Shown piece by piece: positions 14,665 to 32,000 of a stretch of 32,000 bases of DNA. The DNA is from Pseudodesulfovibrio piezophilus C1TLV30 (GTDB lineage: Bacteria; Desulfobacterota; Desulfovibrionia; Desulfovibrionales; Desulfovibrionaceae). Both the position numbers and the translations under genes were made by a program. The notes beneath the pieces were generated by a model, which had not been told where the DNA came from, ran no database searches, and was given only the letters and a program-made list of their open reading frames with translations. The number at the start of each line of letters is the position of its first letter. Position 1 is the first letter of the stretch. Location: positions 570,001 through 602,000 of the forward strand of contig NC_020409.1 in assembly GCF_000341895.1 (NCBI RefSeq), written 5' to 3'.

Positions 14665-14677
14665 TGAGGAGTCTACT

Positions 14678-18145: not shown

Positions 18146-18147
18146 AC

Positions 18148-18453: not shown

Positions 18454-18625
18454 GAAGCAAGAGATACGCAAAGATGGCACGACTGTACGGAAGACCTGTG
18501 ACAACGGCGGGAAGCTGCCTGTCCTCACTATTGTTGATGCACCTGTAGGGACTGACAAGGACTGTGACTACAAGACCAAGGTTCCTCAGGGGCTTGGGAA
18601 TGTGACGTTGGCGCGAGGCAAGTAG
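18443..18625 (+). CDS. Hypothetical small protein (60 aa)
   Basis: GGAGAA SD 4-5 nt before ATG 18443 (18431 is an alternative). It overlaps the previous gene's end, and the next gene's ATG directly abuts its stop. Confidence 0.4.
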   Translation: MTSKKQEIRKDGTTVRKTCDNGGKLPVLTIVDAPVGTDKDCDYKTKVPQGLGNVTLARGK

Positions 18626-18883
18626 ATGGCTATACCTGAGAAGTATCGAGGATTCACATACACAGGAAAGATTCTGACTCTGAAACCGGAAGAGAAGCTG
18701 ACTGATGAAGAGATAATAGAATGGTTGCGAAGTATGGAACGAATTGGACAACCTCAGGCACTATACCCCGCAGGACTCTTGCGAATTGCTGAGAGGACTG
18801 AGGATGGTCATTACTTACTCCCGCCTCCTGAGGTGTGGGTAGAGCCTACTCCGAGGAAGTGGAGAGACATTAAGGGAGACTGA
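18626..18883 (+). CDS. Hypothetical protein (85 aa)
   Basis: The ATG lies immediately after the TAG of the preceding gene; GAGG SD upstream; no recognised family. Confidence 0.5.
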   Translation: MAIPEKYRGFTYTGKILTLKPEEKLTDEEIIEWLRSMERIGQPQALYPAGLLRIAERTEDGHYLLPPPEVWVEPTPRKWRDIKGD

Positions 18884-18884
18884 T

Positions 18885-19343
18885 ATGACGAACAAACATG
18901 AGAGGCTTACCTTGGAAGCCAATGCGATCTTCGTCAGCGCACAGATACAGATAAGGCACAAACTCAATCCTGAACAGGTGGAGACCTACCGGAACAACTA
19001 CCTGAATGGTATTGATATGCCGCCTATTGAGATTGCTCTGTTAGGTAATAGATATTGGGTAGTGGACGGGTTCCACCGTCTAGCAGCTATGAAGACTATC
19101 AACCCTGCCTACCCTGTTGATGCAATTCTCTTGAAGGGAATGTCACAAGCCAAGGTTAGGTGGAGGGCTGCGTCTGCGAACATGCAACACGGCCTACCTC
19201 TGACACGTACTGAGAAGCAACAGGCGTTCAAGGTCTTTGTGGGTCTCAAGATGAACCGTAAGACTTCCAAGAGGAAGCCCCTGAGGGATTGCGGCCCTAA
19301 GGACTTCATGTCCAGAAGTGGGTTCACTTTATCGGACCACTGA
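18885..19343 (+). CDS. ParB/Srx N-terminal-domain protein, 3' end apparently interrupted by IS insertion
   Basis: YWVVDGFHRLAA (DGxHR ParB-like motif) and NMQHGLPLTRTEKQQAF. GGGAGA SD. The stop codon TGA 19341-19343 is the first three bases of the IS terminal inverted repeat. Confidence 0.65.
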   Translation: MTNKHERLTLEANAIFVSAQIQIRHKLNPEQVETYRNNYLNGIDMPPIEIALLGNRYWVVDGFHRLAAMKTINPAYPVDAILLKGMSQAKVRWRAASANMQHGLPLTRTEKQQAFKVFVGLKMNRKTSKRKPLRDCGPKDFMSRSGFTLSDH

Positions 19344-19392
19344 GCGGCGAATTTAAGGTGGACAGTTTTACGTGTTACGCCGCCTTGTGGGT

Positions 19393-19424
19393 CCATCCCA
19401 GAGGGGGTACCCCCTCTGGGATGG
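19393..19424. repeat. Perfect 32-nt palindrome inside the IS, downstream of orfB
   Basis: CCATCCCAGAGGGGGTACCCCCTCTGGGATGG; every position pairs (checked base by base). Confidence 0.9.
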
Positions 19425-19468
19425 GACCGCTTTGATATATCTCCATCGGCTTGCGTCCGTCAAAGGTC

Positions 19469-20284
19469 TTAAGAAGGACCCCAATTATTGTAGAAGTTAA
19501 ACCACCAGGCCAAGGCACTCCGCAGCTCACTTCCTGTCTCCAGTTCCCGCAAGTAGACACATTCGTATTTCAAAGACTTCCAGAGTCGTTCGATCATGAC
19601 GTTATCCATCCAGCGTCCTCGGCCATCCATTGAAATGCGGATGCCAGCATCCCGCAGAGTCTTTGTGAATTCATAGCTGGTGAACTGGCTCCCCTGGTCT
19701 GTGTTGAATATCTCAGGTTCTCCATAACGGTTGATCGCATCCTCCAAAGCTACGACACAAAAGTCGGCCTCCATCGTATTCGACAAACGCCACGACAATA
19801 CTGCCCGGCTATGCCAATCCATGATTGCCACGAGATACAAGAAGCCTCGTTTCATCGGAATGTAAGTAATGTCGGTACACCAAACTTGATTTGGCTTTGT
19901 GATCTTCATGTTCCGCAACAAATACGGATATATTTTGTGCTGTGGATGAGGATCACTCGTCCTCGGTTTTTGGTAAATCGCCATCAAGCCCATCTTGCGC
20001 ATAAGTCGTCTCACACGACCACGGCCAACCAGATGCCTTTCATCCCGCAGAATGTTGCGCATCTGGCGTGAGCCGAAAAATGGTAGCTCCATGAACAACT
20101 CGTCGATGCGTTTCATCAACTCCAAGTTATACGATGATTCGCCAATCGGCTGATAATAGTATGTTGAGCGTTGCAGTTTGAGGATTCTGCATTGTCGCCG
20201 GACGCTGAGTTGTGGATGCTCTTTGTCGACGACTTCACGCCTTCGCTCGCAGCTCAGATTTTGGCGAAGGCTTGTTGCAAAAAA
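19469..20284 (-). CDS. IS3-family transposase OrfB (DDE), expressed as an OrfAB fusion by -1 frameshift
   Basis: The orfB frame is open from the T-TTT-TTG slippery heptamer (plus-strand 20278-20284). It reads [31 protein letters not shown] (D), [11 protein letters not shown] (D), [10 protein letters not shown] (E). The C-terminal end appears frameshifted (see findings). Confidence 0.8.
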
Positions 20285-20541
20285 TCCTTCTCGATCAGAA
20301 GTTGGCCGATCTTAGCGTGCAGATCCTTGATATGTGCATCGTCCATTTGCTGGCTCTTCTCTGCCTTGCCAGAAAATGACGCGACAATACCTTCTTTGGC
20401 TTGTCGTTTCCACGTGGATATCTGGTTGGTGTGAACTCCATACTTGCTGGCCAGCTCGGAAAGTGTGTGCTCGCCAGACAAAGCGTCGAGGGCTACACGG
20501 GCTTTGAATTCAGCAGTAAATCTTCTTCTCTTCTTGGACAT
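20254..20541 (-). CDS. IS3-family transposase OrfA (HTH)
   Basis: AAGGAGG SD before ATG 20541. MSKKRRRFTAEFKARVALDALSGEHTLSELASKYGVHTNQISTWKRQ is the classic IS3 OrfA pattern. Confidence 0.85.
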   Translation of the reverse strand: MSKKRRRFTAEFKARVALDALSGEHTLSELASKYGVHTNQISTWKRQAKEGIVASFSGKAEKSQQMDDAHIKDLHAKIGQLLIEKDFLQQAFAKI

Positions 20542-20738
20542 CGAAAAGCCTCCTTCGGCTATCATATGTCCCCCCTTATACTGTGGTCCAGTTTCTTAGA
20601 CCCACTTCTCATATCAACTAGGATGGCTTAAAAAGTTGCTCAATTGCTATCGAACGCTAAATCTCAACTTGCCAACTGTCACACCGACACAAGAACTGAA
20701 AATATCAATGATTCCAGGAGACACAGGGATCAAGGCTT

Positions 20739-20760
20739 GAATCCCACCCCTCTCCGCCAT
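20739..20760 (+). repeat. attR core (partial duplicate of the tRNA-Ser 3' end)
   Basis: GAATCCCACCCCTCTCCGCCAT. It matches 14560-14580 apart from one extra C, and similarity stops at ...CCAT in both copies. Confidence 0.8.
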
Positions 20761-21116
20761 GGAGATAAAAGCCCCTGTTGTCTTTGAAAACTCAATGGTG
20801 ATAGAGGCTTTCTTTTGCCTATTTCTCGAGATAACTGGAAGTAAAATTTTACTTAAGACGCATCTCAATACGCCTCTCTTAGCGTGCATCCTAAAGTCAC
20901 TGATATTATTATGTTATAATCAAATTTTAGTTACCCCAATCGTGACAAAGTATTCGCTTTGGTCTGCATAAATGCATTCAATTTCTTTCCATCTGGTTAC
21001 AATACCAGTTCATTATGCGTCATAATTATATGATCGTACCCTATCACTCCCCTATCTATTTTACATAAAAATTAACATACTGGACTATTCCACAACCTTA
21101 CCCCTTCGACTTATTA

Positions 21117-22502
21117 ATGAATATTGACTTTAAAGCTCACAATTCTTCTATTAACTATCTTGATTCATTAAAAGAAATAATTGCCCTCACATGGCCTCAA
21201 CTTTTGATGATGCTCGCTCAGTTCCTAGTGGCACTAGCTGATATTGTTGTTGCAGGCCACATAAACAAGGAGGTCCAAGCCTCTCTGGGGTTAATTTCAA
21301 TTTCCATTTTTTTCTTTTTGATCATTGCGACAGCAATATCAAGCGGAGCTGTTGCAATCATATCTCAATCGTTGGGCGCAGGACAACGAAAGCGAGTAGA
21401 ACGTTATACTAGTCTTCTTTTTATCCTTGCAATCAGCTTCGGTATTTTTTTTACCATCGTATTCAGCGTGGCTAAAAATGCCTTCCTACAAATACTTAAC
21501 GTTCCAGAATCCATTCTCCCAATTACTGCATATTTTCTAAGTGTCTATCTTTACGTACTGCCTGCCTACTATTTATTGTTAAGCACAAATGCCATTTTTC
21601 AGGCGTACAAAAAAGTCAAGTTCCCACTCTACTCTATGTGTCTTATTACTTCGCTTAATGGGATTTTGGATTTTGGACTCGGGTTAGGACTCTGGGGATT
21701 TCCCTATTTGGGATATAGGGGGGTAGCCTGGGCAACATTCTGTTCAGTCACTTTGGGAGCCATTTGTAATGTTCATAATATGTATCGGACAGGACTTTTA
21801 GTCTTCCCACTCTTCCCACCTCTACGCTGGATACGCATTGCGTGGAGATGCCTCTATAGCTACGCATGGCCAGCTGCGATGACACAAATCTTATGGCAGG
21901 GAAGCTATATAATTCTTTACATCATAATCAGATATCTTCCCGTTGAACATGTGGGGCCACTTGCTGGTTTTGCAGCAGGTATGCGCATTGAATCCATTTT
22001 GCTCATGCCAGCATTCGCCTTAAACCTAACAGCATCCATCCTCATTGGGCAAACTCTGGGAAAAGGCCAACACGATAAAGCACAGAAAATTGCTCTGAAC
22101 ATCCTCGGGGTCGGAACCGCGGTCATAACGTTGGCAGCGCTCTGTCTATGGAACTTTCGTGTCCCTATTTTGGATTTCATTGCACCGGATGCGATCGTTC
22201 AAAAAAATACTCTCTCATACTTGTCATATGTACTCCCAGCCACTCCCTTTACAGTCGGAGCAATGATTCTAGGAGGAATTATGAATGGGGCTGGAGCAAC
22301 CTTTTATACGATGATCTCGTTTGGTATTACAGCCTGGTTTATCAGAATACCCTTAGCCTACTTTTCATGCCAGATTATCTGGCTCAATTCTGAAGGAATT
22401 TGGTTCTCCATACTGGTCTCACATGTCTGTCATTGCCTTTGTCTCTTGTTTATTTTCCAATTCATGAATTGGCGTAAATTTGCCATGCGCACCCCCCGAT
22501 AA
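21117..22502 (+). CDS. MATE-family efflux transporter
   Basis: About 12 TM helices. The N-terminal LTWPQLLMMLAQFLVALADIVVAGH and the repeated MatE-like halves fit the family. No obvious SD. Confidence 0.85.
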   Translation: MNIDFKAHNSSINYLDSLKEIIALTWPQLLMMLAQFLVALADIVVAGHINKEVQASLGLISISIFFFLIIATAISSGAVAIISQSLGAGQRKRVERYTSLLFILAISFGIFFTIVFSVAKNAFLQILNVPESILPITAYFLSVYLYVLPAYYLLLSTNAIFQAYKKVKFPLYSMCLITSLNGILDFGLGLGLWGFPYLGYRGVAWATFCSVTLGAICNVHNMYRTGLLVFPLFPPLRWIRIAWRCLYSYAWPAAMTQILWQGSYIILYIIIRYLPVEHVGPLAGFAAGMRIESILLMPAFALNLTASILIGQTLGKGQHDKAQKIALNILGVGTAVITLAALCLWNFRVPILDFIAPDAIVQKNTLSYLSYVLPATPFTVGAMILGGIMNGAGATFYTMISFGITAWFIRIPLAYFSCQIIWLNSEGIWFSILVSHVCHCLCLLFIFQFMNWRKFAMRTPR

Positions 22503-22623: not shown

Positions 22624-23223
22624 TTGTTTCAAACGAAGATATGGCGGATCATTTTGAACAATAAGGACAAAAGAAATGCAGAAGTTCTCTGCATTAATTA
22701 TGACGACTCCTTCAAGAAATTGTATAGAGCGAGTTTTGATTCATTGGTTTTGTACCTAAAAACACAATTCCGTTCATGCCCACAACAAGCAGAAGACATA
22801 GCCCAAAATGCTTTTGAAAAAATAGCGACTAGAAAAAATCCGGGACCCATTGGCAACATCAAGGCATTCCTCTGGCGCACAGCACATAATATCGCTATTT
22901 CCGATATACGTTCAAAACGATTGGCTACCAAATATCATGCAGAAACAAAGAATCTCTATGGGCAGGAAGAAGAATACCCTTTAACTCCTGAACGTATTTT
23001 AGAAGGGAAAGAACAGATTGGGCTGGCTGTACAGACACTTCGCCAAATGCCAGAGCAACGACGCAGAGCATTTATTTTAACAAGAATCGAAGGATTAAGC
23101 CACACCAAAGCCTCAGAAAAATTGGGAATATCTCGCCCAGCAGTCAGCAAACATGTTGCCAGAGCTACCTCCGATCTCTACACTGCATTGCATAATGAAC
23201 TCAGAAGCAGCACAAAAAAGTAA
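22624..23223 (+). CDS. ECF sigma factor, FecI-like
   Basis: Sigma-70 region 2 (AEDIAQNAFEKI...FLWRTAHNIAISDIR) and region 4 HTH (LSHTKASEKLGISRPAVSKHVARA). The gene is followed after 2 nt by a FecR gene. There is no in-frame ATG, so the start is TTG 22624 or TTG 22654. Confidence 0.8.
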   Translation: MFQTKIWRIILNNKDKRNAEVLCINYDDSFKKLYRASFDSLVLYLKTQFRSCPQQAEDIAQNAFEKIATRKNPGPIGNIKAFLWRTAHNIAISDIRSKRLATKYHAETKNLYGQEEEYPLTPERILEGKEQIGLAVQTLRQMPEQRRRAFILTRIEGLSHTKASEKLGISRPAVSKHVARATSDLYTALHNELRSSTKK

Positions 23224-23225
23224 CT

Positions 23226-24290
23226 ATGCATGAGATTGACGCAAATATCATAAACGTAGCCTGTCAGTGGCGCGCAACTTTGGCGGATGATCACGTTTCC
23301 ACCGTGGACAAAAACGCATTTGTCAAATGGCTCGAAGAAAACCCACTGCATAAAGAGGCCTATGAGCAAGTTGAAAAATTTTGGCAGGATCTGGAATTCT
23401 TAAAACAAGAATCTCTTGATGATTCTTTTTTCATTCCAACATGGCGAGAACGGACCAGATCCGTCGTGTGGAGAATACACGAGTGTATTAATAAAAAATC
23501 AAAGCCAGCGTTCTATGGTCTTGGAGGAGTGTGCGCGCTCGTACTGCTTGTATTTCTTTGTTTTCCCCAAATTATACTTTTTCCCTCGTATTCGGGGGAG
23601 ATCTTCGCCACTGGAATAGGAGAAAAAAAGACTCTTCACCTTGCCGACGGCAGCCGGATAACGCTGGGTGCTGACACATCAGTCAAGGTCACCTTCACTC
23701 GAACAAGCAGACATATACAAATGAGTACCGGTGAAGCATTTTATGAAGTAGCGAAAGATCCGAAAAGACCTTTTATCGTCGTGTCCGGAGAACATCAAAT
23801 CACAGTTCATGGCACAATATTTGATGTTCGTCATAATACCCAAAGAATACAGGTTGCAGTCAGAGAGGGAGTGGTAAGCGTAACAGCTTTACAAAAGATT
23901 TCTCCTTTGGATAGAACAAAGCCCCCCCAGCCTCCAACATCACACTCCCCTCTTGTACAATCCAAGATTCTGAAGGCTGGCGAACAACTGACAATCCTGG
24001 CTGAAAAAGGTTTACAGCCAGTTACTCACATCCAGCCTCAAAGCATTGGTCTATGGAGAAACAATATTCTAGCATATATCGACACACCTTTATCGGAAAT
24101 CGTAGCGGATATGAACAGATACCAAAGCCGAAAAATCAGTATCCATGATGCGCTCGTTGCAAATATAAAAATAACTGCCACATTCAATAGTAACGATGTT
24201 GATAAAACGCTCCAGACTCTAACAGAGATCTTGCCGATTCGGCTTGAATCCTCAACCGAGAGCTTACGTATTTATAGTGCTTTTAATTAA
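23226..24290 (+). CDS. FecR-family transmembrane anti-sigma / sensor protein
   Basis: Cytoplasmic anti-sigma N-domain (ACQWRATL...FVKWLEENPLHKEAYEQVEKFW), a single TM (AFYGLGGVCALVLLVFLCF) and a periplasmic FecR-type domain. Confidence 0.85.
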   Translation: MHEIDANIINVACQWRATLADDHVSTVDKNAFVKWLEENPLHKEAYEQVEKFWQDLEFLKQESLDDSFFIPTWRERTRSVVWRIHECINKKSKPAFYGLGGVCALVLLVFLCFPQIILFPSYSGEIFATGIGEKKTLHLADGSRITLGADTSVKVTFTRTSRHIQMSTGEAFYEVAKDPKRPFIVVSGEHQITVHGTIFDVRHNTQRIQVAVREGVVSVTALQKISPLDRTKPPQPPTSHSPLVQSKILKAGEQLTILAEKGLQPVTHIQPQSIGLWRNNILAYIDTPLSEIVADMNRYQSRKISIHDALVANIKITATFNSNDVDKTLQTLTEILPIRLESSTESLRIYSAFN

Positions 24291-24323
24291 TTTTCTTTAG
24301 ATATCACTTTTTACTCAGCCTAT

Positions 24324-24350
24324 GGTTACATCTCCCTCTTCTCGGGCGTC
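24324..24350 (+). promoter_or_regulatory. Candidate ECF-type promoter upstream of the TonB-dependent transducer
   Basis: GGTTAC-N17-CGTC resembles the generic ECF pattern GGAAC-N16/17-CGT. It lies about 60 nt before the probable GTG start. The match is weak. Confidence 0.25.
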
Positions 24351-24409
24351 TTATACAGTAGATGCGACTCAAACCGCATCAGCTAACACTTCCTGAGGAG
24401 GAAAATCAC

Positions 24410-26779
24410 GTGGTAACTTCGACTATTACTGTACCAAAATGCAACTCTTTTATAGCAACTTTCTTTTTTTTATTCATCACACTATTAGCCACTCAAGCAC
24501 TAGCTCAAGATGAGTATCGTGAATTAGACTTGCCACAGCAGTCTCTTCAAGAATCCTTGGTATCAGTTGGTAAAACATATGGAGTAACTATAGTTGCACC
24601 GAGTGATATTCTTCGAGATAAAATTGCACCACCAGTCTCCGGGCGGCTCTCTATTGAGCAAGCAATCAACCAACTGCTTCAAGACTCTGGACTTGAGAGG
24701 CAGCATTCATCTAACGGGTCTATTCTTCTCAAAAAAAAGGTCATCTTGACCAATACAGAGACGTCCTCCTCATCCAAAGCCTCGGATAAGAATGAAGAAC
24801 AGGGACTTCAACTTGCTCCCGTCATAGTCACCGGGGAACGGTCGGAACGCACACTGTATGAGACTGCGGCGTCCACTGCAGTCGTTTCAGGTGAAGACAT
24901 AGAGAAAACCCCTTCTTTCAAAGAAGTTGACGACATCCTTCAAACTATTCCAAACGTTGACCTGGGAGGAAACAGCAATGAAGGGCCAACAATCCGAGGT
25001 GTTAAAGCGGGTGGCCCATTAAGTGGAGTCTATGCCTTCTTTGGAGGCTCTCGGCCGAGGGCTACTATCACAGTTGATGGACGCTCTGTCAGTTTCGATG
25101 AATTCATATTTGGGGCCACCTCTGTATGGGATGTTCAAAGAGTCGAGGTTTTCCGAGGTCCACAAACCACTTCTCAGGGAGTAAACTCTATTGCTGGTGC
25201 CATTCATGTTGTCACCTCCGATCCTACATATGAACCACATTTCAAAGCACAGGCCGAGTACGGTGATTATAAAAGCGGCAGAATCTCAGCATCAGCTTCA
25301 GGCCCTCTTGTGGAAGACCAACTTGCCATTCTTCTGTCTGCAGATCTTCAACGAAGTGACAGTTTCATTGATATTCAGCCGACGTCGGATTATGGACCAG
25401 ACCCTAATACCTTTCTCAACGGCGTTATTCGAGGAAAGGTCTTGTGGGAGCCCACGAGTCTTCCTGAATTGAGAATGAAATTCACTCTCGGAAGCACTCG
25501 AAATGAGGCACCACAGGCTGAGTATGTCAAAACAACAGGCTCCATCAAAGACTTGAAGTCTATCTCTACGAATCTGCCGTCAAGACGTCTGATCGCGACG
25601 ACAGGAATACATGATGTTTCATATGAATTTTCAGATTCAATAAAGCTCAGCAACCGTTTTTCATACTCCGACATTGACAGCAATCGCTATGTTGATCTCC
25701 CAACATCTGGGAAAGCCAAATCGGAAAAAGATGAAGTATCCAATGAGACTACATTGCATTGGGAAAATCAGGAATCCGGATTGTCAGGGCTTATGGGGGT
25801 CTTTTACCAACACACCAATAGTGATGAATACCTCAATTACAGCCTTGCAGGAGAAGGGACTTTTGATGATTTGCAAACGAGTCTCGGACTCTACACTGAA
25901 GTGAATTACGATATCACGGACCGGTTGGATCTGACAATGGGGGTTCGGTATGAGCAAGACCGGCAGGACCGGTCAGGCGCAACTGTTGGCGGGAGTCTAT
26001 ACAACATAGACATGGAATATGACAAAACTTTTGAATCTATTCTTCCAAAAATATCGATCGGGTATGATGTATCTGATAATGTCAGAATTGGTGCACTTGT
26101 TTCACGAGGGTTCAACCCTGGTGGAGTGACACTTCTGTGGTCAGATGGCTCAACAAACTACTTCGATGAAGAAACAGTATGGAACTATGAGATATTCTCC
26201 CGTATCAAGTTACTTGAAAACCGACTCGTCCTTAACACCAATATCTTCTACGCAGATTACTCCGATTACCAACTCAATTATCTTGCCGGAGATTTCTATG
26301 GCAGCGCTGTTTATGGAATCGCCAATGCTGAAGAAGCTGTGAGCTACGGTCTTGAATTAAGTGCTGACTATCTCCCCACAGAGAAGCTCCACATCTACTC
26401 AGGGCTCGGCCTTCTTCAAACCGAGATTAAAAAATTCGATGATGCTGGTGGCATAGATGCTGAAGGTGCTTCATTCATGCGCTCTCCATCCATTACTTTG
26501 TCTCTCGGTGCTGATTATGAACTTATTAAAAATCTAACCATCGGTGGCCGCGCACGTTATGTGGGAGAATATAAAAGCGAAGATACCAACGATAGTCTTT
26601 CCGCAGGAGATTATGCTGTTGTCGATCTCCAGGCCAGTTATGAATACGACCCGTTTACCGTCTATGGATATGTCAACAATGTATTTGATTCATTTTATAC
26701 AATCAGTGAACTGACGGTTGGACGAGCAATTGTCGGCAATCCTCGAAAATTTGGTGTTGGCATAAAGTATAGCTTTTAG
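24410..26779 (+). CDS. TonB-dependent receptor/transducer with N-terminal STN signalling domain (FecA-like)
   Basis: GAGGAGG SD 8 nt before GTG 24410 (the ORF track ATG 24362 is an alternative). Features: signal peptide ...TQALA, STN domain (LDLPQQSLQESLVSVGKTYGVTIVAP), plug (APVIVTGER), and a beta-barrel ending GVGIKYSF. Confidence 0.9.
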   Translation: MVTSTITVPKCNSFIATFFFLFITLLATQALAQDEYRELDLPQQSLQESLVSVGKTYGVTIVAPSDILRDKIAPPVSGRLSIEQAINQLLQDSGLERQHSSNGSILLKKKVILTNTETSSSSKASDKNEEQGLQLAPVIVTGERSERTLYETAASTAVVSGEDIEKTPSFKEVDDILQTIPNVDLGGNSNEGPTIRGVKAGGPLSGVYAFFGGSRPRATITVDGRSVSFDEFIFGATSVWDVQRVEVFRGPQTTSQGVNSIAGAIHVVTSDPTYEPHFKAQAEYGDYKSGRISASASGPLVEDQLAILLSADLQRSDSFIDIQPTSDYGPDPNTFLNGVIRGKVLWEPTSLPELRMKFTLGSTRNEAPQAEYVKTTGSIKDLKSISTNLPSRRLIATTGIHDVSYEFSDSIKLSNRFSYSDIDSNRYVDLPTSGKAKSEKDEVSNETTLHWENQESGLSGLMGVFYQHTNSDEYLNYSLAGEGTFDDLQTSLGLYTEVNYDITDRLDLTMGVRYEQDRQDRSGATVGGSLYNIDMEYDKTFESILPKISIGYDVSDNVRIGALVSRGFNPGGVTLLWSDGSTNYFDEETVWNYEIFSRIKLLENRLVLNTNIFYADYSDYQLNYLAGDFYGSAVYGIANAEEAVSYGLELSADYLPTEKLHIYSGLGLLQTEIKKFDDAGGIDAEGASFMRSPSITLSLGADYELIKNLTIGGRARYVGEYKSEDTNDSLSAGDYAVVDLQASYEYDPFTVYGYVNNVFDSFYTISELTVGRAIVGNPRKFGVGIKYSF

Positions 26780-26793
26780 ACAGAGGACTCTCA

Positions 26794-28479
26794 ATGTCAT
26801 TATCAAAAAATACAATTCAAACAAAACCGCGGGTCAAAGGACCCGCGGTGCGAATCGCATCGGCCATCCATTCTGCTGCAGGATTGTGGTTCTTTATCCT
26901 TCTCTCTCTTGTCCTTTTTTCCGGAACTCTGGCTGTTTTTGCTCCGGAAATGGATCAATTGATATACCCTGAAATGCGGCTATCTCTCCCCCAAAAAGGG
27001 GTAGGTAAAATCAACCCAGGAGCCATATATGATGCTGTAACTCAGGCTTATCCCGGAATGGGGATAACATATATAGATATGGCCGCCCATGATCGATATG
27101 CTCCTGCCAAGACAACGATCATTTTCCCAGACAACAAGCGTCGTACAGTCAGCATTGACCCCTATACTGCAAAAATAATTGGTGAAATACCTGATATGAC
27201 TGTACACAGCTTCATAGCGCGCATGCACGCAGTACTCTTTCAAGGATTATTCGGTTTTTACGTTGTCAATTTCTGTGGAGTATTATTGCTCGCAATCACG
27301 ATTTCCGGATTAATTATCTACAAACGGTTCTGGAAATCTCTCTTCAAAATCCCCCGCTTTAAACGCGGCACACGTATACTGCTTGGTGATCTCCATAGGC
27401 TTATTGGATTGTGGTCGATTGGATTCTTGCTTATTATCAGTTTGACTGGAAGTTGGTATTTTTACAACTTCCCTCTTGCTCACCTCGGCCTAGTGCCCAA
27501 TATAATAGAGACCCAACCTTCACCTCATAATATCAGCCAAGCGGACCTTGATGCACTCGGCCCACAAACACCTCATCGGCAAAGCGGGGCCCACCTCATA
27601 TCCGTTGTTCTCTCTGCGTATCCAGATATGACCATTACTGGTATCATGCCCCCGATGAATCTGAATATGCCCTTTGTTGTTTACGGCGATCGAGATGAAT
27701 ATCTTCATGGCAAAGACTCTAATTCCATATCCATCAACCCTTTTACATCTGAAATTATCGGAGCCAATTTGTCCGAGGATCTCTCTTTGAGTCAATACGC
27801 TTTTCAAGGAATGAGCCAGTTACATCATGGAGAATTACTGCCGAAGAACTGGGGTTGGCCTGCTCAAATGATCATGAAAGGCATCTGGTTTCTTTGCGGT
27901 CTCGGAACTTGCTTCCTCTCAGTCTCAGGGCTTTATTTTTCACTCAAGCGTACACGGCAATCAATAAAGCAACTTGGCTGGAGAAAGGTCTGGCATTGGG
28001 GTAAACCTTGGGGCGGTCCCATGGGACTTTTCAAATATATCAACGTGCTGGTGCTCGTCGCTTTGATCGCTGGTTATATGCATATGGTTTCAATGGGCCA
28101 ACCAAAGCCAGCACTTCCACAACAAGCATTCTCTTCTCAACAAGCAGGCCCATTCAATGTTTCATTACGAATCAAGGCTGGCCCTAGAAATGATGCTATC
28201 AACCCGATACAGCCAGGCGGGCGTTTAATGGTTTTCCCCAATATTGAGGGAGGTCTATTCGAGGATGCACGCACCATACTCATCGGTTTAACGAAAGCCA
28301 AAGGGTCAAGTGCGCGAGGCGTTCGAGTTAAAGGAGCTGAAAAAATAGCGTTTGCCCCACTTCGCCTTCCCCGGCAACTTGAAGGCGTCGAAATTTGGAT
28401 TGAACTCACCCAATGGGATGGCACTACTTCTCGAACACAGTGGGCTCTTTCTTCGGGGAAAAATATCGCCCCATTATGA
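26794..28479 (+). CDS. PepSY-associated TM-helix protein (PiuB/FoxB-like putative reductase) with an extra C-terminal domain
   Basis: IHSAAGLWFFILLSLVLFSGTLAVFAPE N-terminal signature. Conserved His residues occur in TM segments (ARMHAVLF, LHRLIGLW, LHHGEL). About 127 aa lie beyond the last TM. Confidence 0.8.
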   Translation: MSLSKNTIQTKPRVKGPAVRIASAIHSAAGLWFFILLSLVLFSGTLAVFAPEMDQLIYPEMRLSLPQKGVGKINPGAIYDAVTQAYPGMGITYIDMAAHDRYAPAKTTIIFPDNKRRTVSIDPYTAKIIGEIPDMTVHSFIARMHAVLFQGLFGFYVVNFCGVLLLAITISGLIIYKRFWKSLFKIPRFKRGTRILLGDLHRLIGLWSIGFLLIISLTGSWYFYNFPLAHLGLVPNIIETQPSPHNISQADLDALGPQTPHRQSGAHLISVVLSAYPDMTITGIMPPMNLNMPFVVYGDRDEYLHGKDSNSISINPFTSEIIGANLSEDLSLSQYAFQGMSQLHHGELLPKNWGWPAQMIMKGIWFLCGLGTCFLSVSGLYFSLKRTRQSIKQLGWRKVWHWGKPWGGPMGLFKYINVLVLVALIAGYMHMVSMGQPKPALPQQAFSSQQAGPFNVSLRIKAGPRNDAINPIQPGGRLMVFPNIEGGLFEDARTILIGLTKAKGSSARGVRVKGAEKIAFAPLRLPRQLEGVEIWIELTQWDGTTSRTQWALSSGKNIAPL

Positions 28480-28581
28480 GACCTTCATCAACTGCTAAAA
28501 AAACATTGGATTGATTCACGAGTTTAGCCGTCTCCCTCATTAATTAATTATACATAGTCACTGCTCCTGGAGGACTTAAAC

Positions 28582-28887
28582 ATGAAAATTACTACCGTAC
28601 TTATTCCACTTTTCATATTGTTCTTATGCTTTAATGCTCACGCCCATACACTATATTTTACTCTGAGCGATGACGGAGACAACATGGTCGAACTTGAAGG
28701 AATGTTTTCAAATGGTGTCATGGGTGCTGGCATCGCAGTCAATCTCTACAGTAAAGAAGATAACGCTCTCATCTGGAAAGGACGAACGGATGAGTTTGGG
28801 CTATGCACTTTCGAACGTCCCGATAAGCCCTATGAAGTTGAACTTGACGCAGGGCCGGGGCATCAGTCCAGAGAAGACGGAATCTAA
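28582..28887 (+). CDS. Small secreted protein, CarboxypepD_reg/transthyretin-like beta-sandwich (hypothetical)
   Basis: GGAGGA SD. The signal peptide ends AHA, leaving a mature N-terminus of His (HTLYF...). The G.AV.LY....I..GRTDEFG.C.FE....YEV pattern fits the fold. Confidence 0.6.
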   Translation: MKITTVLIPLFILFLCFNAHAHTLYFTLSDDGDNMVELEGMFSNGVMGAGIAVNLYSKEDNALIWKGRTDEFGLCTFERPDKPYEVELDAGPGHQSREDGI

Positions 28888-28905
28888 TACTGCTATTCTG
28901 TTACT

Positions 28906-28937
28906 AAGCGGGTGTAAATCTGAACCTACACCCGCTT
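28906..28937 (+). terminator. Hairpin after the small secreted-protein gene
   Basis: AAGCGGGTGTA pairs with TACACCCGCTT (11 bp, 10-nt loop). There is no clear T-run. Confidence 0.45.
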
Positions 28938-29325
28938 AATATAGCGCAGTAGGCAGTTGTTTTGACAATATAATCATGACTGGCTCATATAAAGAGGCCA
29001 TTTCCCCGAAAGTTGATTCTAAAGAGCGTCAAGAACTGCCATTTATTTATCTGTAACATACGACTAACGGCATCGCTCCACTCAACGTTTCCTTGTGGAG
29101 TCAATTGAGACAATTTTCTTTTACGACCCGCCATCAGCAGAAATATCGGTATGAAATAGAGACAAAAACTATGTACTCATACCTGATTCACTGGAACCTA
29201 AATATCCCCCCTTCAGCATGATCTTCCATGATCGCCAGCTTGACCTTCGCTCCCCATCCTTCATCTGATTATATGCTTGTTGCCAATGTCGATATTGATT
29301 AAATTTGTCCCTGACACACAACTTT

Positions 29326-29487
29326 TCACTCAACAAGAGGTTGTCCCAACTCTCGCATAACGACTCTCTTGCCGATACCGGCTCCCCCTGAAACGATCAG
29401 AATTTTTCCGGTTATATTTAAAACAGAATCAAATCTTTCAAGCAGACTTTTTTTACCATAAGGCTTTGTCAAAAAGAACACCTTCAT
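29326..29487 (-). pseudogene. Remnant of a short-chain dehydrogenase/reductase gene (N-terminal Rossmann segment only)
   Basis: The 53-codon ORF ...GKILIVSGGAGIGKRVVMREL... carries the SDR TGxxxGIG-type dinucleotide motif and then stops. The next expected strand (GTNLINIDI) appears in a different frame downstream. Confidence 0.4.
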
Positions 29488-29771
29488 AGCTCTTCTCTTT
29501 ATTTAGATGGGCTGTAAAATCTTTTTTCAAACCCTAGAATTCTAAAATCTGGACATTTGTGTCACTAACGCAGAGAACACAAAAGATTGACAGGAACCAT
29601 CATGAACGGACAGAACATGTGCCTGCCAGAATGATAGGCAGGAAAGAAAGAGATAACGCAAATATGAACAATACAGGTTCTATAAAACTGCAGGGGGTTC
29701 ATATTGAAAAATTATTTAAAAAACATTCTGTTAAGTCAGTTTAATTAAACCTATACCTAAAAAATATTCAT

Positions 29772-31955
29772 ATGGATAGAGTGCACTCCCAATTGCCATC
29801 CAATAAATTTAGACTGCTTACAGTGGTCATGGCTATCGGCTTTTTCACCTCGTTAGGCATTGGCCTTTTTTCTTTTGTAGTTCCACTTATGAGTCTGGAT
29901 GAGAAAATTAGTGGAGCTTGGCTTGGGAGTGCCTTTGCCGGATATTATTTTGCCAAACTCTTGGCGGCACCTCTCAGTGGAGCTGCCGCTGATAAATTCG
30001 GACCAAAGCCTGTGCTGATCTGTGCGACTTTAGCCGGTTGTCTTATTCCACTCTTCGCACTCTTGAAAAATGACTTAGAGGTTCTTTATTTTGTCCAATT
30101 CTCCTTAGGACTCATTTCCGGACTTATAAAACCAGTCGGAATGGCCATTTTGGGAAGTAATATTGCCAGGAAATCACTTCCACGCTCTTTTGCATTTCAC
30201 GCCTTCTCATATCATATAGCTCTTTTCATCGGCCCCCTGATTGGAGGGATATTTTATATCAAAGGATCAGTTCAGCCCATTTTAATAGGCTTGTCGATAT
30301 GCATGGGGCTGAGCTGCCTTGTCAGCATCTTTTTACTCCCAAAACAAACAACAACGACAGTATCTCCTTCAAAACAACACACATCTTTTTCCTTCGGATT
30401 ACAGACCCTTGCGCTCTTAATTGCTATTGGTGGCCGTACTATTGGAATTGGATTTCTGGCTGCTTTCTACCCAATATTACTGAGTATAATTCTAGGCAGA
30501 GGCATCAAGATCGCCCTCCTTTTTGCCATTCCTGGCCTGGCAACCTGCCTCGGACTTCTGGCAATAAACAGATTTGCTGAACACAAGCCTGATCTGCATA
30601 TGACAATTTGTGGCATGCTGTTAAGTTCCTTAGCCATGTTTTTTCTTGGAGAAGCCGAAACCTCCTGGCAATTTATCACCCTTGGATCAACGATGGGCAT
30701 AGGTGCCGCTCTTTCTGTTCCGGCATCAATGTCAATGGCATCCGATATATCGTTACAACAAGGTAAGATTTTTGGGACCGCTCACCTGGCAGCAGGTCTC
30801 GGTTTTCTGATTGGCCCATTGCTTGGCGGCTTTCTTATTCCGGAACTACACTCTATCAATCCTGTTCTCCAAATTGCAGCCACTCTAGGCGCACTTTCTT
30901 GTGTTCCATTACTGTGCTCTGCACTTCAGAGTCACTTTCATTTTGGCAGAGGAATCGCATGGGGAGTTGCACTAACTTTAGCTCTATTTCTGATTATTCC
31001 AGCAGCCGTCAGGAGTAAGGTGCTTTTGCAAAAAGATTCCCATATAAATGATGGAATATACCAATTCACCGATGTTGCTATGGGCACCATTGTCAATCTG
31101 ACCCTCGTCGCTGACAGTCAAAAAAAAGCAGATGATGCCGCTCGAAAAACCCTTACGACCATGCGTGCGCTTCAGCAGGACTTCGACTTTCGCAGTCCTC
31201 ATGGATCCATCGGAAGAATTAATCGAGATGCAGGCCATGGCTGGGTCAAACCATCACAGAGGTCTTTTGGCCTCATCATGAGAACATTGGTCATCAGCAG
31301 ACAATCACAAGGAATCTTTGATCCTTCGGTCGGTGCTTTAACAACATCCCCAATCTACTATGCACTGGATACGCATCTTGCAGAAAAGAAGAAAGGACTC
31401 GTTGATTACAGACTTATTGAGATAGATACTTCAGGAAAGAGAATCCGCCTTGCCAGGATGGGGATGGCACTCGATATGGGGGGAATTGCCAAAGGGACAA
31501 TAATAGATACCGCAGTGACCGTTTTAAAAAAACAAGGTATCAAATCCGGAATAGTCGAAGCAGGCGGAGACTTTTATTGCTTTGGAGACCGAGAATGGCA
31601 CATTGGAATCCGTCATCCTCGTGATAAAAAGCTCTTCGGCACGCTCGCCATTCGAGAACAAGGCGTCTGCGGTTCAGGTGATTATCAACAATATGTCACA
31701 TTCGAAGACAAAAAAGGGAGTGAACGACGACATCATATTATTAACCCTTCCACTATGCTCTCAGCGCACCAATCCATCGGAGTCACTGTCATCTCCGACA
31801 CCGCAGAACGTGCGGACGCTTTGGCTACCACACTCTTTATCATGGGGCCGATCAATGGACAGGAATTCCTCGATAAATATTATCCAACAACCGCTGCGGT
31901 CTGGTTTTCTCCCGATCAATCCGTTATTCTCTCCAAGAACTTTCCTGCCCGATGA
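29772..31955 (+). CDS. Fusion protein: MFS transporter (12 TM) + extra TM + ApbE-family FAD:protein FMN transferase domain
   Basis: The N-terminal ~390 aa has an MFS topology and loop motif (PLSGAAADKFGPKP). A 13th hydrophobic helix (GIAWGVALTLALFLIIPAAV) follows. The C-terminal ~300 aa carries ApbE motifs: ALDMGGIAKG, GSGDYQ, HHIINP, ADALATT. Confidence 0.85.
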   Translation: MDRVHSQLPSNKFRLLTVVMAIGFFTSLGIGLFSFVVPLMSLDEKISGAWLGSAFAGYYFAKLLAAPLSGAAADKFGPKPVLICATLAGCLIPLFALLKNDLEVLYFVQFSLGLISGLIKPVGMAILGSNIARKSLPRSFAFHAFSYHIALFIGPLIGGIFYIKGSVQPILIGLSICMGLSCLVSIFLLPKQTTTTVSPSKQHTSFSFGLQTLALLIAIGGRTIGIGFLAAFYPILLSIILGRGIKIALLFAIPGLATCLGLLAINRFAEHKPDLHMTICGMLLSSLAMFFLGEAETSWQFITLGSTMGIGAALSVPASMSMASDISLQQGKIFGTAHLAAGLGFLIGPLLGGFLIPELHSINPVLQIAATLGALSCVPLLCSALQSHFHFGRGIAWGVALTLALFLIIPAAVRSKVLLQKDSHINDGIYQFTDVAMGTIVNLTLVADSQKKADDAARKTLTTMRALQQDFDFRSPHGSIGRINRDAGHGWVKPSQRSFGLIMRTLVISRQSQGIFDPSVGALTTSPIYYALDTHLAEKKKGLVDYRLIEIDTSGKRIRLARMGMALDMGGIAKGTIIDTAVTVLKKQGIKSGIVEAGGDFYCFGDREWHIGIRHPRDKKLFGTLAIREQGVCGSGDYQQYVTFEDKKGSERRHHIINPSTMLSAHQSIGVTVISDTAERADALATTLFIMGPINGQEFLDKYYPTTAAVWFSPDQSVILSKNFPAR

Positions 31956-32000
31956 AATTATTGTTACTAATCGGTATCAATCTTGCTTTAATCTCATAAT

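What the first reader, a model, noticed from the sequence alone, without database searches (positions are those of the whole stretch)
29772..31955. MFS transporter fused through a 13th TM helix to a periplasm-facing ApbE flavin transferase domain
Seen: a single 727-aa ORF. Residues ~1-390 form a 12-helix MFS-like core. An extra hydrophobic helix (GIAWGVALTLALFLIIPAAV) follows. The final ~300 aa is an ApbE domain with ALDMGGIAKG, GSGDYQ, HHIINP and ADALATT.

Established knowledge: ApbE flavinylates extracytoplasmic proteins (NqrC, RnfG and others) using FAD on the periplasmic side.

Inference: an odd 13th helix would place ApbE outside the cell. The fusion would then physically couple a transporter (a flavin or FAD exporter?) to the enzyme that consumes the flavin. 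The gene lies 0.9 kb downstream of a PepSY-TM/TonB cluster. As far as I recall, comparative genomics has linked ApbE with PepSY-type putative reductase clusters; this is from memory and should be verified. No canonical flavinylation acceptor motif ([ST]GA[ST] in a small secreted protein) is evident in the neighbouring genes, so the substrate is unknown.
Basis: partly seen in the sequence, partly recalled or inferred. Interest (0 to 1): 0.65.

Follow-up and report, generated by a model that had tools for sequence, protein, structure and literature searches.

The report
Export pump fused to flavin-attaching enzyme
A genuine, conserved gene of sulfate-reducing bacteria joins a membrane export pump to the enzyme that attaches flavin to proteins outside the cytoplasm; this hints, without proving it, that the pump delivers the enzyme's flavin substrate, which would address the open question of how FAD reaches that compartment.

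Summary
Window 29772-31955(+) is one 727-aa ORF made of a 12-helix DHA1-like MFS, a 13th helix and a complete ApbE domain. It is not an artefact: an independent metagenome contig carries the same ORF, and 83 protein clusters (40-61% identity, Desulfovibrionales) share the architecture with both halves conserved. Four lines of evidence place ApbE in the periplasm: loop charge bias, an AlphaFold model with 13 helices, export signals on the stand-alone relatives, and secreted acceptors next door in relatives. The proposed link to the upstream TonB/PepSY cluster is not supported. That cluster is separated by 0.9 kb of decayed DNA, lacks a flavinylation substrate, and is absent next to every orthologue examined. 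Conserved synteny instead runs downstream, to a DctBD-like two-component system and then frdCAB. In one sister subclade a secreted double-FMN_bind protein lies immediately upstream, among iron-uptake genes. The idea that the MFS exports FAD for its own ApbE domain is plausible: exporter motifs are present, only basic charges are conserved inside the membrane, and Listeria EetB/FmnA-FmnB is a precedent. It remains unproven, and the MFS was lost at least three times within the clade. No paper found describes this fusion. I rate it a new variant of a known kind, of moderate interest.

The parts
29772..31955 (+). Complete MFS-TM13-ApbE fusion gene (727 aa plus stop codon)
   Evidence: ORF list. 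Pfam MFS_1 plus ApbE. Same intact ORF on independent contig L001. 83 homologous clusters share the architecture.
29796..30938 (+). 12-helix MFS core (residues 9-389), DHA1-like. Motif A is around D74. Motif B has K/R120. Antiporter motif C (GPLIGG) is in TM5 and echoed in TM11. Conserved intramembrane basic residues are K/R62, K/R120 and the invariant R222.
   Evidence: AF2 helices. NCBIfam best hits are Tet/Bcr/MdtL/MdtG/FslB-type efflux pumps, all below cut-off. Foldseek matches NorA, VMAT1/2 and MFSD10 at TM 0.72-0.85. Family conservation.
30948..31034 (+). 13th transmembrane helix (residues 393-421; hydrophobic core 394-413). It is a topological adaptor running from inside to outside, and it occupies the position of the signal peptide, lipobox or anchor of stand-alone relatives.
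   Evidence: Hydropathy peak 2.38. AF2 helix 393-421. The TM12-TM13 connector is about 6 aa and the MFS loops obey the positive-inside rule. The sequence is not conserved. Stand-alone relatives align to the profile from about position 391-403 and carry export signals there.
31056..31952 (+). Periplasm-facing ApbE (FAD:protein FMN transferase) domain, residues 429-727, with invariant D568/G570/G571/K574, S635-Y638, H654-H655 and D682/T686.
   Evidence: Pfam ApbE covers the full profile. phmmer hits solved ApbE/Ftp/FmnB structures with motifs in register. Foldseek TM 0.80-0.85 to FmnB, Ftp and TM1553. Invariant columns.
28888..29771 (.). Non-coding gap separating the fusion gene from the PepSY/TonB cluster. 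This is context and not part of the system. It contains stop-interrupted opposite-strand fragments, for example an SDR-like N-terminus.
   Evidence: Six-frame translation. No promoter or terminator signal above background. No remnants of the TetR, NAD kinase or NrdD genes found upstream in relatives.

Best explanation
The gene encodes a bifunctional inner-membrane protein of a Pseudodesulfovibrio-like sulfate reducer.

Shown computationally, about 0.9 confidence: a 12-helix MFS with its N- and C-termini in the cytoplasm is followed by a 13th helix that crosses the membrane once more. The C-terminal ApbE domain therefore sits on the periplasmic face, tethered to the membrane in place of the usual lipoprotein anchor.

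Inferred from intact catalytic motifs and fold, about 0.8 confidence: the ApbE domain uses FAD and Mg2+ to transfer FMN onto a Thr/Ser of exported FMN_bind-type proteins. In the window organism the acceptor must be encoded elsewhere, for example RnfG or NqrC-type subunits. In a sister subclade the acceptor is a secreted double-FMN_bind (PplA-like) protein encoded immediately upstream.

Inferred, about 0.4 confidence: the MFS half is an active exporter of an anionic substrate, most likely FAD. It would supply the cytoplasmically made cofactor directly to its own ApbE domain, as a one-polypeptide analogue of the Listeria EetB/FmnA exporter plus FmnB.

The neighbouring TonB/PepSY cluster is not part of this system.
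For: Reality and conservation:
- One ORF with both Pfam domains, and the same ORF on independent contig L001.
- 83 clusters share the architecture, with invariant residues in both halves.

Topology:
- Family-wide K+R totals about 13 in the predicted cytoplasmic loops against about 3 in the periplasmic loops, with a 6-aa TM12-TM13 connector.
- The AF2 model (pLDDT 87.6) has 13 helices followed by the ApbE fold.
- Nested stand-alone relatives carry a signal peptide, lipobox or anchor where TM13 lies.
- In relatives the adjacent acceptors have signal peptides.

ApbE competence:
- Full-length Pfam match.
- Alignment to TM1553 and FmnB with the HH-I-[IL]-[ND]-P, GSGDY and DALAT motifs in register.
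- Foldseek TM 0.80-0.85 to FmnB, Ftp and ApbE structures.

Acceptor link:
- A double-FMN_bind secreted protein lies directly upstream of the fusion in L008, L009 and L093, and upstream of the nested stand-alone ApbE in L088.

Exporter character of the MFS:
- Best NCBIfam similarities are efflux pumps.
- Structural neighbours are NorA, VMAT and MFSD10.
- Motifs A, B and C are conserved, and the conserved intramembrane charges are all basic, which fits an anionic, phosphate-bearing substrate.
- A TetR gene lies immediately upstream in four loci.

Precedent and need:
- FAD exporter genes co-localise with apbE in 2169 genomes (PMC9973259).
Against: - No direct evidence identifies the MFS substrate.
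- The MFS was lost or split at least three times inside the clade (bootstrap 98-100 for the mixed subclades). ApbE of this clade can therefore work without it.
- Outside this clade, MFS-ApbE linkage is not seen: 1 of 77 unrelated ApbE loci, consistent with chance.
- TetR-regulated DHA1-like pumps usually export xenobiotics or metabolites.
- No conserved membrane-embedded acidic residue is available for H+ antiport.
- The most conserved neighbourhood is the frdCAB/C4-dicarboxylate cluster, which known ApbE biology does not explain and which contains no acceptor motif.
- The acceptor in the window organism was not identified.
- The window protein has three K/R just after TM13 (family mean 2.1 K/R against 2.1 D/E).
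Confidence: 0.45

Rival explanations
1. The MFS exports some other anion and was fused to ApbE only because the two genes were operon neighbours. Candidates are a carboxylate siderophore or citrate, succinate or another C4-dicarboxylate, or a toxic metabolite. The fusion is topologically permitted and gives co-expression and anchoring, but there is no substrate hand-over.
For: A TetR repressor lies directly upstream in four loci, the classic efflux-pump layout. There is weak similarity to siderophore and drug exporters such as FslB, Tet and Bcr. One subclade sits in an iron-uptake neighbourhood. Adjacency to frdCAB-fumarase-DASS is conserved in the others. Basic intramembrane residues fit any anion. 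The MFS is dispensable in nested stand-alone lineages.
Against: Both halves have been kept in one reading frame across 37-61% identity divergence. Fusions of operon neighbours usually mark a shared pathway. A separate DASS dicarboxylate carrier is already present in the frd cluster. No siderophore biosynthesis genes were seen next to any fusion locus.
Confidence: 0.3
2. The MFS exports FAD, but the ApbE domain acts mainly as a periplasmic FAD pyrophosphatase, like T. pallidum Ftp. It would generate free FMN for flavin homeostasis or as an extracellular electron shuttle, rather than modifying proteins.
For: The structural neighbours include T. pallidum Ftp, a bifunctional FMN transferase and FAD pyrophosphatase. 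The review notes that some ApbEs hydrolyse FAD and that a single residue can switch the activity (PMC12052999). No acceptor is encoded near the window gene.
Against: Close relatives of this ApbE are encoded directly beside secreted FMN_bind acceptors. The residue that governs the switch was not mapped here.
Confidence: 0.1
3. One reading: the fusion is the flavinylation arm of the adjacent FecI/FecR-TonB receptor-PepSY_TM iron system, maturing a flavoprotein that works with the PepSY reductase.
For: PepSY-like flavinylation clusters are real and common (PMC8238504). The fusion lies about 1.3 kb from a PepSY_TM gene. A sister subclade places the module among TonB/Feo/DtxR genes.
Against: The window cluster has no DUF2271 or FMN_bind substrate, and its 101-aa secreted protein resembles only the N-terminal part of NikL-type subunits. 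The 0.9 kb spacer carries decayed opposite-strand fragments. None of ten related loci has a PepSY gene or a TonB-dependent receptor gene beside the fusion. Downstream synteny, not upstream, is conserved, with the kinase and regulator 70-83% identical.
Confidence: 0.07
4. The MFS half is a degenerate, non-transporting membrane anchor for ApbE.
For: TM13 alone, or a lipobox, suffices in stand-alone relatives, and the MFS can be lost.
Against: Transport-cycle motifs A, B and C and the intramembrane R222 are invariant or nearly so across the family. A 12-helix anchor would be costly when one helix is enough.
Confidence: 0.06

Closest known systems
ApbE / Ftp periplasmic FAD:protein FMN transferases (E. 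coli, V. cholerae and S. enterica ApbE; T. pallidum Ftp; T. maritima TM1553)
   Same: The C-terminal 300 aa has the complete ApbE fold and motifs. Its predicted location is extracytoplasmic and membrane-tethered.
   Different: The tether is a polytopic MFS plus a 13th helix, not an N-terminal lipid anchor or signal peptide. Sequence identity to solved structures is only 19-28%.
Listeria monocytogenes EET flavinylation module: FmnB (ApbE-like), EetB/FmnA ECF FAD exporter and the PplA double-FMN_bind lipoprotein (PMC9973259)
   Same: FmnB is the best structural match (TM 0.84). Relatives of the fusion are encoded next to a secreted double-FMN_bind protein, with a lipobox in L008. The logic is the same: a dedicated transporter is genetically coupled to an extracytosolic ApbE.
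   Different: The transporter here is an MFS rather than an ECF/ABC type, it is covalently fused, and its substrate is unproven. The host is a Gram-negative sulfate reducer. The acceptor site is D-x-[VI]-A-K-A-T rather than D-x-x-[ST]-G-A-[ST].
MATE-family flavin exporters Bfe (Shewanella) and YeeO (E. coli)
   Same: The proposed role matches: moving FAD or flavin across the inner membrane of Gram-negative bacteria (PMC3551548 and related papers).
   Different: The superfamily is different (MOP/MATE versus MFS), and these exporters are not fused to or co-localised with apbE (discussion in PMC9973259). The window's own MatE gene (21117-22502) is only generically MATE.
DHA1-type MFS efflux pumps (NorA, TetA, Bcr/CflA, MdtG/MdtL) and VMAT/MFSD10
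   Same: 12-TM fold, motifs A, B and C, and TetR-linked gene organisation in part of the family.
   Different: All NCBIfam scores are far below the family cut-offs. No conserved intramembrane acidic residue is present, only basic ones. There is an extra 13th helix and an enzymatic domain.
PepSY-like flavinylation gene clusters (Meheust et al. 2021, PMC8238504)
   Same: A PF03929 PepSY_TM gene lies within a few genes of an ApbE-domain gene.
   Different: There is no DUF2271 or FMN_bind substrate and no DUF4198 Pfam hit. The association is not conserved in any orthologous locus.
Trypanosomatid ApbE-fumarate reductase fusion (reviewed in PMC12052999)
   Same: ApbE is fused to another functional module, and there is a curious recurrence of a link between fumarate reductase and ApbE.
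   Different: There, ApbE is fused to its own acceptor enzyme in the cytosol or glycosome. Here the partner is a transporter, and the neighbouring FrdCAB lacks any FMN_bind domain or acceptor motif.

Membership tests
ApbE family (PF02424; FAD:protein FMN transferase) | Full-length match to the family profile above the curated threshold | tested here: met
   207.9 bits against a cut-off of 25.6, profile positions 1-265 of 266, residues 437-710.
ApbE family (PF02424; FAD:protein FMN transferase) | ApbE alpha/beta fold | tested here: met
   The AF2 model (pLDDT 87.6) superposes on FmnB, Ftp, TM1553 and the E. coli, V. cholerae and P. stutzeri ApbE structures at target-normalised TM 0.77-0.85.
ApbE family (PF02424; FAD:protein FMN transferase) | Catalytic His (V. 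cholerae His257 per PMC12052999) and the Mg2+/FAD-binding motifs | tested here: met
   H654-H655-I-I-N-P aligns with the H-H-I-L-D-P of TM1553 and FmnB. GSGDY and the D682...T686 (DALAT) motif are also in register and invariant in the family. The residue-by-residue equivalence to V. cholerae His257 and to the Mg2+ ligands rests partly on memory.
ApbE family (PF02424; FAD:protein FMN transferase) | Extracytoplasmic, membrane-associated location | tested here: met
   Computational only: charge bias, 13 helices, export signals in stand-alone relatives, and secreted acceptors next to relatives.
ApbE family (PF02424; FAD:protein FMN transferase) | FMN transfer to Thr/Ser of a D-x-x-[ST]-G-A-[ST] acceptor | not testable with these tools
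   No acceptor is encoded in the window. Acceptor candidates next to relatives are FMN_bind domains with a variant D-x-[VI]-A-K-A-T site.
Major facilitator superfamily, DHA1-like H+ antiporter/exporter | 12-TM MFS fold and MFS_1 profile match | tested here: met
   MFS_1 scores 119.9 bits against a cut-off of 33.4. There are 12 helices at residues 9-389. Foldseek TM 0.72-0.85 to NorA, VMAT and MFSD10.
Major facilitator superfamily, DHA1-like H+ antiporter/exporter | Motif A (G-x3-D-[RK]-x-G-[RP]-[RK]) and antiporter motif C (G-x3-G-P-x2-G-G in TM5) | tested here: met
   The family consensus is 'aPl.G..aDr.Gpr' and 'f.GPllGg'. D74, P155 and G154/G158 are invariant or nearly so. The motif definitions are from memory of the MFS literature.
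Major facilitator superfamily, DHA1-like H+ antiporter/exporter | Conserved membrane-embedded acidic residue for proton coupling or cation binding | tested here: not met
   No D/E is conserved at 60% or more within any TM helix except motif A D74 at the cytoplasmic end. The conserved intramembrane charges are K/R62, K/R120 and R222.
Major facilitator superfamily, DHA1-like H+ antiporter/exporter | Membership of a named, curated exporter family | tested here: not met
   All NCBIfam hits are far below their cut-offs, for example Tet(A) family 46 bits against 475 and 2A0121 37 bits against 320.
PepSY-like flavinylation system (Meheust 2021 operational definition) | [quoted passage not shown] | tested here: inconclusive
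   A PF03929 gene at 26794-28479 lies two ORFs and 0.9 kb upstream of the ApbE-domain gene. The spacer holds gene debris, so operon linkage is doubtful.
PepSY-like flavinylation system (Meheust 2021 operational definition) | Flavinylation substrate (DUF2271 or FMN_bind) in the cluster | tested here: not met
   No such Pfam hit in any neighbouring ORF and no acceptor motif.
PepSY-like flavinylation system (Meheust 2021 operational definition) | Association conserved in orthologous loci | tested here: not met
   No PepSY gene or TonB-dependent receptor gene lies next to the fusion in L001-L006, L087 and L091-L094.
Dedicated FAD-exporter plus ApbE module (Listeria EetB/FmnA-FmnB type) | EetB (PF07456) ECF-S subunit or ECF-T/A partners | tested here: not met
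   The transporter is an MFS, and no ECF components were seen in the window or in related loci.
Dedicated FAD-exporter plus ApbE module (Listeria EetB/FmnA-FmnB type) | Transporter moves FAD outward and is required for flavinylation | not testable with these tools
   Requires genetics or transport assays.

The most novel reading that the evidence does not exclude
The MFS half is the first MFS-type FAD exporter and is physically coupled to its consumer. It hands cytoplasmic FAD directly to the tethered periplasmic ApbE domain. It may work as an FAD(out)/AMP(in) exchanger that also removes AMP, the product that inhibits ApbE. The fusion would then be a self-contained periplasmic flavinylation machine. 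It would also be a Rosetta-stone clue to how FAD reaches ApbE in Gram-negative bacteria that lack Bfe- or EetB-type exporters.
Probability: 0.35. Interest if true: 0.75.

Novelty: new variant of a known kind. Interest (0 to 1): 0.55.

Why it matters
ApbE-dependent flavinylation underlies Rnf, Nqr, NosR and many extracytosolic electron-transfer and iron-reduction systems. A 2025 review nevertheless states that the route by which FAD reaches periplasmic ApbE is 'still obscure' (PMC12052999). Known flavin exporters are the MATE type (Bfe/YeeO) and the ECF type (EetB/FmnA). A transporter covalently fused to ApbE provides a specific, cheap-to-test candidate for a third route: compare full-length protein against TM13-ApbE constructs, make point mutants of R222, K120 and D74, and assay FAD transport in liposomes. 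The fusion also gives a natural scaffold for studying substrate hand-over between a transporter and a periplasmic enzyme.

If the MFS turns out to carry something else, the value is smaller. The family would then be a clade-restricted way of anchoring ApbE, with an unexplained, conserved association with the fumarate reductase locus.

Tried and rejected
1. Frameshift or assembly artefact: rejected.

2. L024 (Armatimonadota), with separate adjacent MFS and ApbE genes, as independent 'Rosetta stone' support: rejected. That ApbE has no export signal and the MFS is only 23% identical. A background scan found an MFS-like gene within 3 kb in only 1 of 77 unrelated ApbE loci, consistent with chance.

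The exhaustive HMMER search was used instead.

4. The tRNA-Ser/integrase island as an explanation for the TonB/PepSY cluster: the repeat of the tRNA 3' end lies at 20748, so the island ends before the cluster.

5. Promoter and terminator scan of the 0.9 kb gap: nothing above the shuffled background.

6. Remnants of TetR, NAD kinase or NrdD in the gap: none.

7. The small 101-aa secreted protein as a DUF2271 or DUF4198 acceptor: no Pfam hit, only sub-threshold similarity to the N-terminal part of NikL.

8. The window MatE as a Bfe/YeeO orthologue: only generic MATE similarity (42 bits against a 465 cut-off).

9. A hidden acceptor motif in the conserved frd neighbourhoods: none found.

11. The exact 727-aa product is not on record, so the source genome beyond the window could be viewed only through L001.

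12. A first bootstrap attempt timed out and was redone with faster distance calculations.

13. The residue that switches ApbE between transferase and FAD pyrophosphatase activity (T. pallidum N55 / E. coli Y60, from memory) was not mapped.
Full report
OBSERVATION. The window contains a single ATG-initiated ORF of 727 aa at 29772..31955 on the + strand. Pfam assigns MFS_1 to the N-terminal part (E=1.5e-34) and ApbE to residues 437-710, covering positions 1-265 of the 266-position profile (E=2.6e-61). The base composition of the gene is unremarkable for the window.

IS THE FUSION REAL? Yes. An independent JGI metagenome contig (L001; 5 mismatches over the 2684 shared bases) carries the same uninterrupted 727-aa ORF. 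A search of 5.8 billion clustered proteins returned 83 clusters of about 700-820 aa that carry both Pfam domains. They are 40-61% identical to the window protein and are named, where named at all, from Pseudodesulfovibrio, Maridesulfovibrio, Salidesulfovibrio and other Desulfovibrionaceae. In a 52-sequence alignment both halves hold invariant residues. In the MFS half these include motif A D74, motif C P155 and R222. In the ApbE half they include D568/G570/G571/K574, S635-Y638, H654/H655 and D682/T686. An exhaustive profile search of 1.84 billion representatives at 50% identity found only 16-17 that span the whole profile, against 4351 hits at E<=1e-30 that are mostly stand-alone ApbEs. The architecture is therefore genuine and under selection, but rare and clade-restricted.

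TOPOLOGY. Four independent lines place ApbE outside the cytoplasm.
- Averaged over the family, the loops predicted to be cytoplasmic for a standard N-in MFS carry about 13 K+R in total, against about 3 for the periplasmic loops. The TM12-TM13 connector is only about 6 residues, so TM13 must run from inside to outside.
- An AlphaFold2 model built on the family alignment (mean pLDDT 87.6, pTM 0.67) has 12 helices between residues 9 and 389, a 13th helix at 393-421 and the ApbE alpha/beta fold from residue 429.
- The closest stand-alone ApbE relatives align to the family profile from about position 391-403. They carry a cleavable signal peptide, a lipobox or a single anchor helix exactly where TM13 lies.
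- In relatives, the gene next door encodes a signal-peptide-bearing FMN_bind protein, which only an extracytoplasmic ApbE could modify.
TM13 itself is hydrophobic but not conserved in sequence, as expected for a topological adaptor. One small point runs the other way: the window protein has three K/R just after TM13, although the family average there is charge-neutral.

THE TWO HALVES. The ApbE half matches the sequences of solved ApbE, Ftp and FmnB structures, with HH-I-[IL]-[ND]-P, GSGDY and DALAT in register. The model superposes on Listeria FmnB, T. pallidum Ftp and T. maritima TM1553 at target-normalised TM 0.80-0.85. It looks catalytically competent.

The MFS half resembles efflux pumps. 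Its best NCBIfam similarities are Tet(A), Bcr/CflA, MdtL/MdtG and FslB-type exporters, all far below the family cut-offs. Its structural neighbours are NorA, VMAT1/2 and the organic-anion carrier MFSD10. Motifs A, B and the antiporter motif C (GPllGG in TM5, echoed in TM11) are conserved. The only conserved intramembrane charges are basic: K/R62 in TM2, K/R120 in TM4 and the invariant R222 in TM7. No acidic residue is conserved within the helices. By inference, this describes an active transporter of exporter type with an anionic substrate. It does not describe a classical drug/H+ antiporter, nor a dead anchor.

GENOMIC CONTEXT IN THE WINDOW. Positions 1-14,000 encode core functions: RpoN, LptABC, KdsA, PyrG, PurQ and a TadA-like deaminase. 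A tRNA-Ser gene (14487-14579) is followed immediately by an integrase gene, and a 16-nt repeat of the tRNA 3' end at 20748 bounds a small island. After the island come a MATE transporter, a FecI-like ECF sigma factor, FecR, a TonB-dependent transducer with an STN domain, and a 561-aa PepSY_TM protein. Last is a 101-aa secreted protein that has no DUF2271 or DUF4198 hit and shows only sub-threshold similarity to the N-terminal part of NikL. An 884-nt spacer (28888-29771) follows. It contains stop-riddled opposite-strand fragments, for example an SDR-like 'ILIVSGGAGIGK' N-terminus, and no recognisable promoter or terminator. No ORF in the window carries a flavinylation motif apart from a chance SGAT inside the receptor barrel.

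COMPARATIVE CONTEXT. Contig L001 extends beyond the window and shows a dCache_1 histidine kinase and a sigma-54 response regulator downstream of the fusion gene.

- Class i. The same two genes follow the fusion in two Pseudodesulfovibrio genomes, and frdCAB, fumarase, malic enzyme and a DASS carrier come next. The kinase and regulator are 70-83% identical between L001 and those genomes, so this is orthologous synteny and the window organism is Pseudodesulfovibrio-like. The upstream neighbour differs in each genome: NAD kinase, NrdD, or here the PepSY cluster.
- Class ii. In Maridesulfovibrio and in the divergent P0153, a TetR gene sits immediately upstream of the fusion. In three of these four loci (L005, L091, L094) the pair is divergent from the same frd cluster; in L092 the upstream neighbour was not annotated.
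- Class iii. In a third subclade (L008, L009, L093) a secreted protein with two FMN_bind domains lies directly upstream of the fusion. The same protein precedes the nested stand-alone ApbE in L088. L093 places this pair among HemS/ChuX, ExbB-ExbD-TonB, a DtxR-type repressor and FeoAAB-FeoC. L088 places it beside a ZnuA-type ABC system, two DUF4198 proteins and FeoA.

None of these loci has a PepSY gene or a TonB-dependent receptor gene next to the fusion.

EVOLUTION. In a neighbour-joining tree of the ApbE domain, all fusions and their nested stand-alone relatives form one clade against generic ApbEs (100/100 bootstrap). Three subclades that mix fused and stand-alone forms are strongly supported (100, 100 and 98). 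The order at the base of the clade is weak (51-57). Because the MFS halves are homologous throughout, the parsimonious reading is a single fusion event followed by at least three losses or fissions. One locus, L087, has the two halves in overlapping ORFs in different frames. The MFS is therefore advantageous enough to persist across deep divergence, but it is not indispensable to this ApbE.

MECHANISM. Shown computationally: a membrane protein whose ApbE domain faces the periplasm and is tethered by TM13. Inferred from intact motifs and from acceptor-encoding neighbours in relatives: it transfers FMN from FAD to exported FMN_bind proteins. In the window organism the acceptor is encoded elsewhere. 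Rnf-type complexes are widespread in Desulfovibrionaceae (PMC11434368), but I could not survey the source genome.

Inferred with moderate confidence (about 0.4): the MFS exports FAD to feed its own ApbE domain. The arguments for this are:
- the fusion itself;
- the exporter-type motifs and the anion-compatible cavity;
- the Listeria precedent, where a dedicated FAD exporter (EetB/FmnA) co-localises with apbE in 2169 genomes and works with FmnB and the double-FMN_bind lipoprotein PplA (PMC9973259);
The arguments against are:
- there is no direct evidence for the substrate;
- the MFS was lost repeatedly;
- no MFS-ApbE linkage exists outside this clade (1 of 77 loci);
- the TetR-regulated layout is typical of metabolite or xenobiotic efflux;
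- the conserved frd adjacency remains unexplained, with no acceptor motif anywhere in those neighbourhoods.

COMPARISON WITH THE KNOWN. The C-terminal half is a member of the ApbE family: profile, fold, catalytic motifs and predicted location are all met, and only activity is untestable here. The N-terminal half is an MFS of DHA1-like character. It does not belong to any curated exporter family, and it fails the 'conserved intramembrane acidic residue' feature. The locus does not qualify as a PepSY-like flavinylation cluster, because the substrate is absent and the association is not conserved. Functionally the closest analogue is the Listeria FmnB/EetB-FmnA/PplA module, but with a different transporter superfamily and a covalent fusion.

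Searches of PMC and bioRxiv, together with targeted reading of the two large flavinylation surveys and the 2025 ApbE review, found no mention of an MFS-ApbE fusion or of an MFS-type flavin exporter. Databases label these proteins simply 'MFS transporter' or 'FAD:protein FMN transferase'.

VERDICT. Novelty: a new variant of a known kind, namely an ApbE with a transporter-plus-13th-helix anchor, so far uncharacterised. Interest is moderate (0.55). The fusion is clade-restricted and its mechanism is unproven, but it offers a concrete, easily tested candidate answer to a question the field itself flags as open.

Noticed in passing
window 14487-20763: A tRNA-Ser(CGA) gene (14487-14579) is followed immediately by a DUF6538/phage-integrase gene (14600-16351). 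An IS-type rve transposase lies at 19469-20125. A 16-nt repeat of the tRNA 3' end (CCCTCTCCGCCATKGA) occurs at 14568 and 20748. This looks like a small (about 6 kb) tRNA-integrated genomic island.
   Followed up: partly
window 22624-28887: FecI-like ECF sigma factor, FecR, STN-domain TonB-dependent transducer and PepSY_TM gene cluster in a Pseudodesulfovibrio-like sulfate reducer. The PepSY_TM protein (561 aa) has a C-terminal extension of about 170 aa with no Pfam or NCBIfam hit. The following 101-aa secreted protein has only sub-threshold similarity to the N-terminal part of NikL-type ECF subunits.
   Followed up: partly
window 28888-29771: An 884-nt spacer with stop-interrupted opposite-strand coding fragments (for example the SDR-like 'MKVFFLTKPYGKK...ILIVSGGAGIGKRVV' followed by a stop), suggesting decayed genes. 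A perfect 10-bp hairpin (AAGCGGGTGT...ACACCCGCTT) lies just after the 101-aa ORF.
   Followed up: partly
L008 9037-9768; L009 9316-9984; L093 4762-5469; L088 4801-5469: A family of secreted proteins of about 220-245 aa (lipobox in L008) with two FMN_bind repeats. Their putative flavinylation site is the non-canonical D-x-[VI]-A-K-A-T rather than D-x-x-[ST]-G-A-[ST]. They are always encoded directly upstream of this ApbE clade, and sit among Feo/TonB/DtxR/DUF4198 iron-related genes in L093 and L088.
   Followed up: partly
L002, L004, L005, L091, L094 (flanks of the fusion gene): Adjacency of the fusion gene to the frdCAB-fumarase-malic enzyme-DASS carrier cluster is conserved across lineages only 36-55% identical. 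No FMN_bind domain or acceptor motif occurs in any ORF there. This is unexplained.
   Followed up: partly
protein P0273 (from the census): A second, independent 'polytopic membrane domain plus ApbE' fusion. The N-terminal domain of about 400 aa gives weak MOP/Wzx-flippase hits (Polysacc_synt_3 just above threshold). MOP is the superfamily that contains the MATE flavin exporters. YbeY-ApbE (P0168) and NusG_II-ApbE (P0232) fusions were also seen.
   Followed up: partly
L087 8001-10186; protein P0092: Split or truncated versions of the fusion. In L087 the MFS (398 aa) and ApbE (349 aa) ORFs overlap by 61 nt in different frames. In the complete genome of Pseudodesulfovibrio sediminis a 445-aa product covers only profile positions 282-725. 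These could be frameshifts, pseudogenes or genuine fissions.
   Followed up: no
L001 versus L002/L004: The fusion protein evolves faster than its neighbours. It is 54-61% identical to the Pseudodesulfovibrio orthologues, against 70-83% for the adjacent histidine kinase and sigma-54 regulator.
   Followed up: no
window 31952-31999: A 15-codon hydrophobic mini-ORF (MKLLLLIGINLALIS) starts at the ATGA that overlaps the fusion gene's stop codon. It is probably not significant.
   Followed up: no
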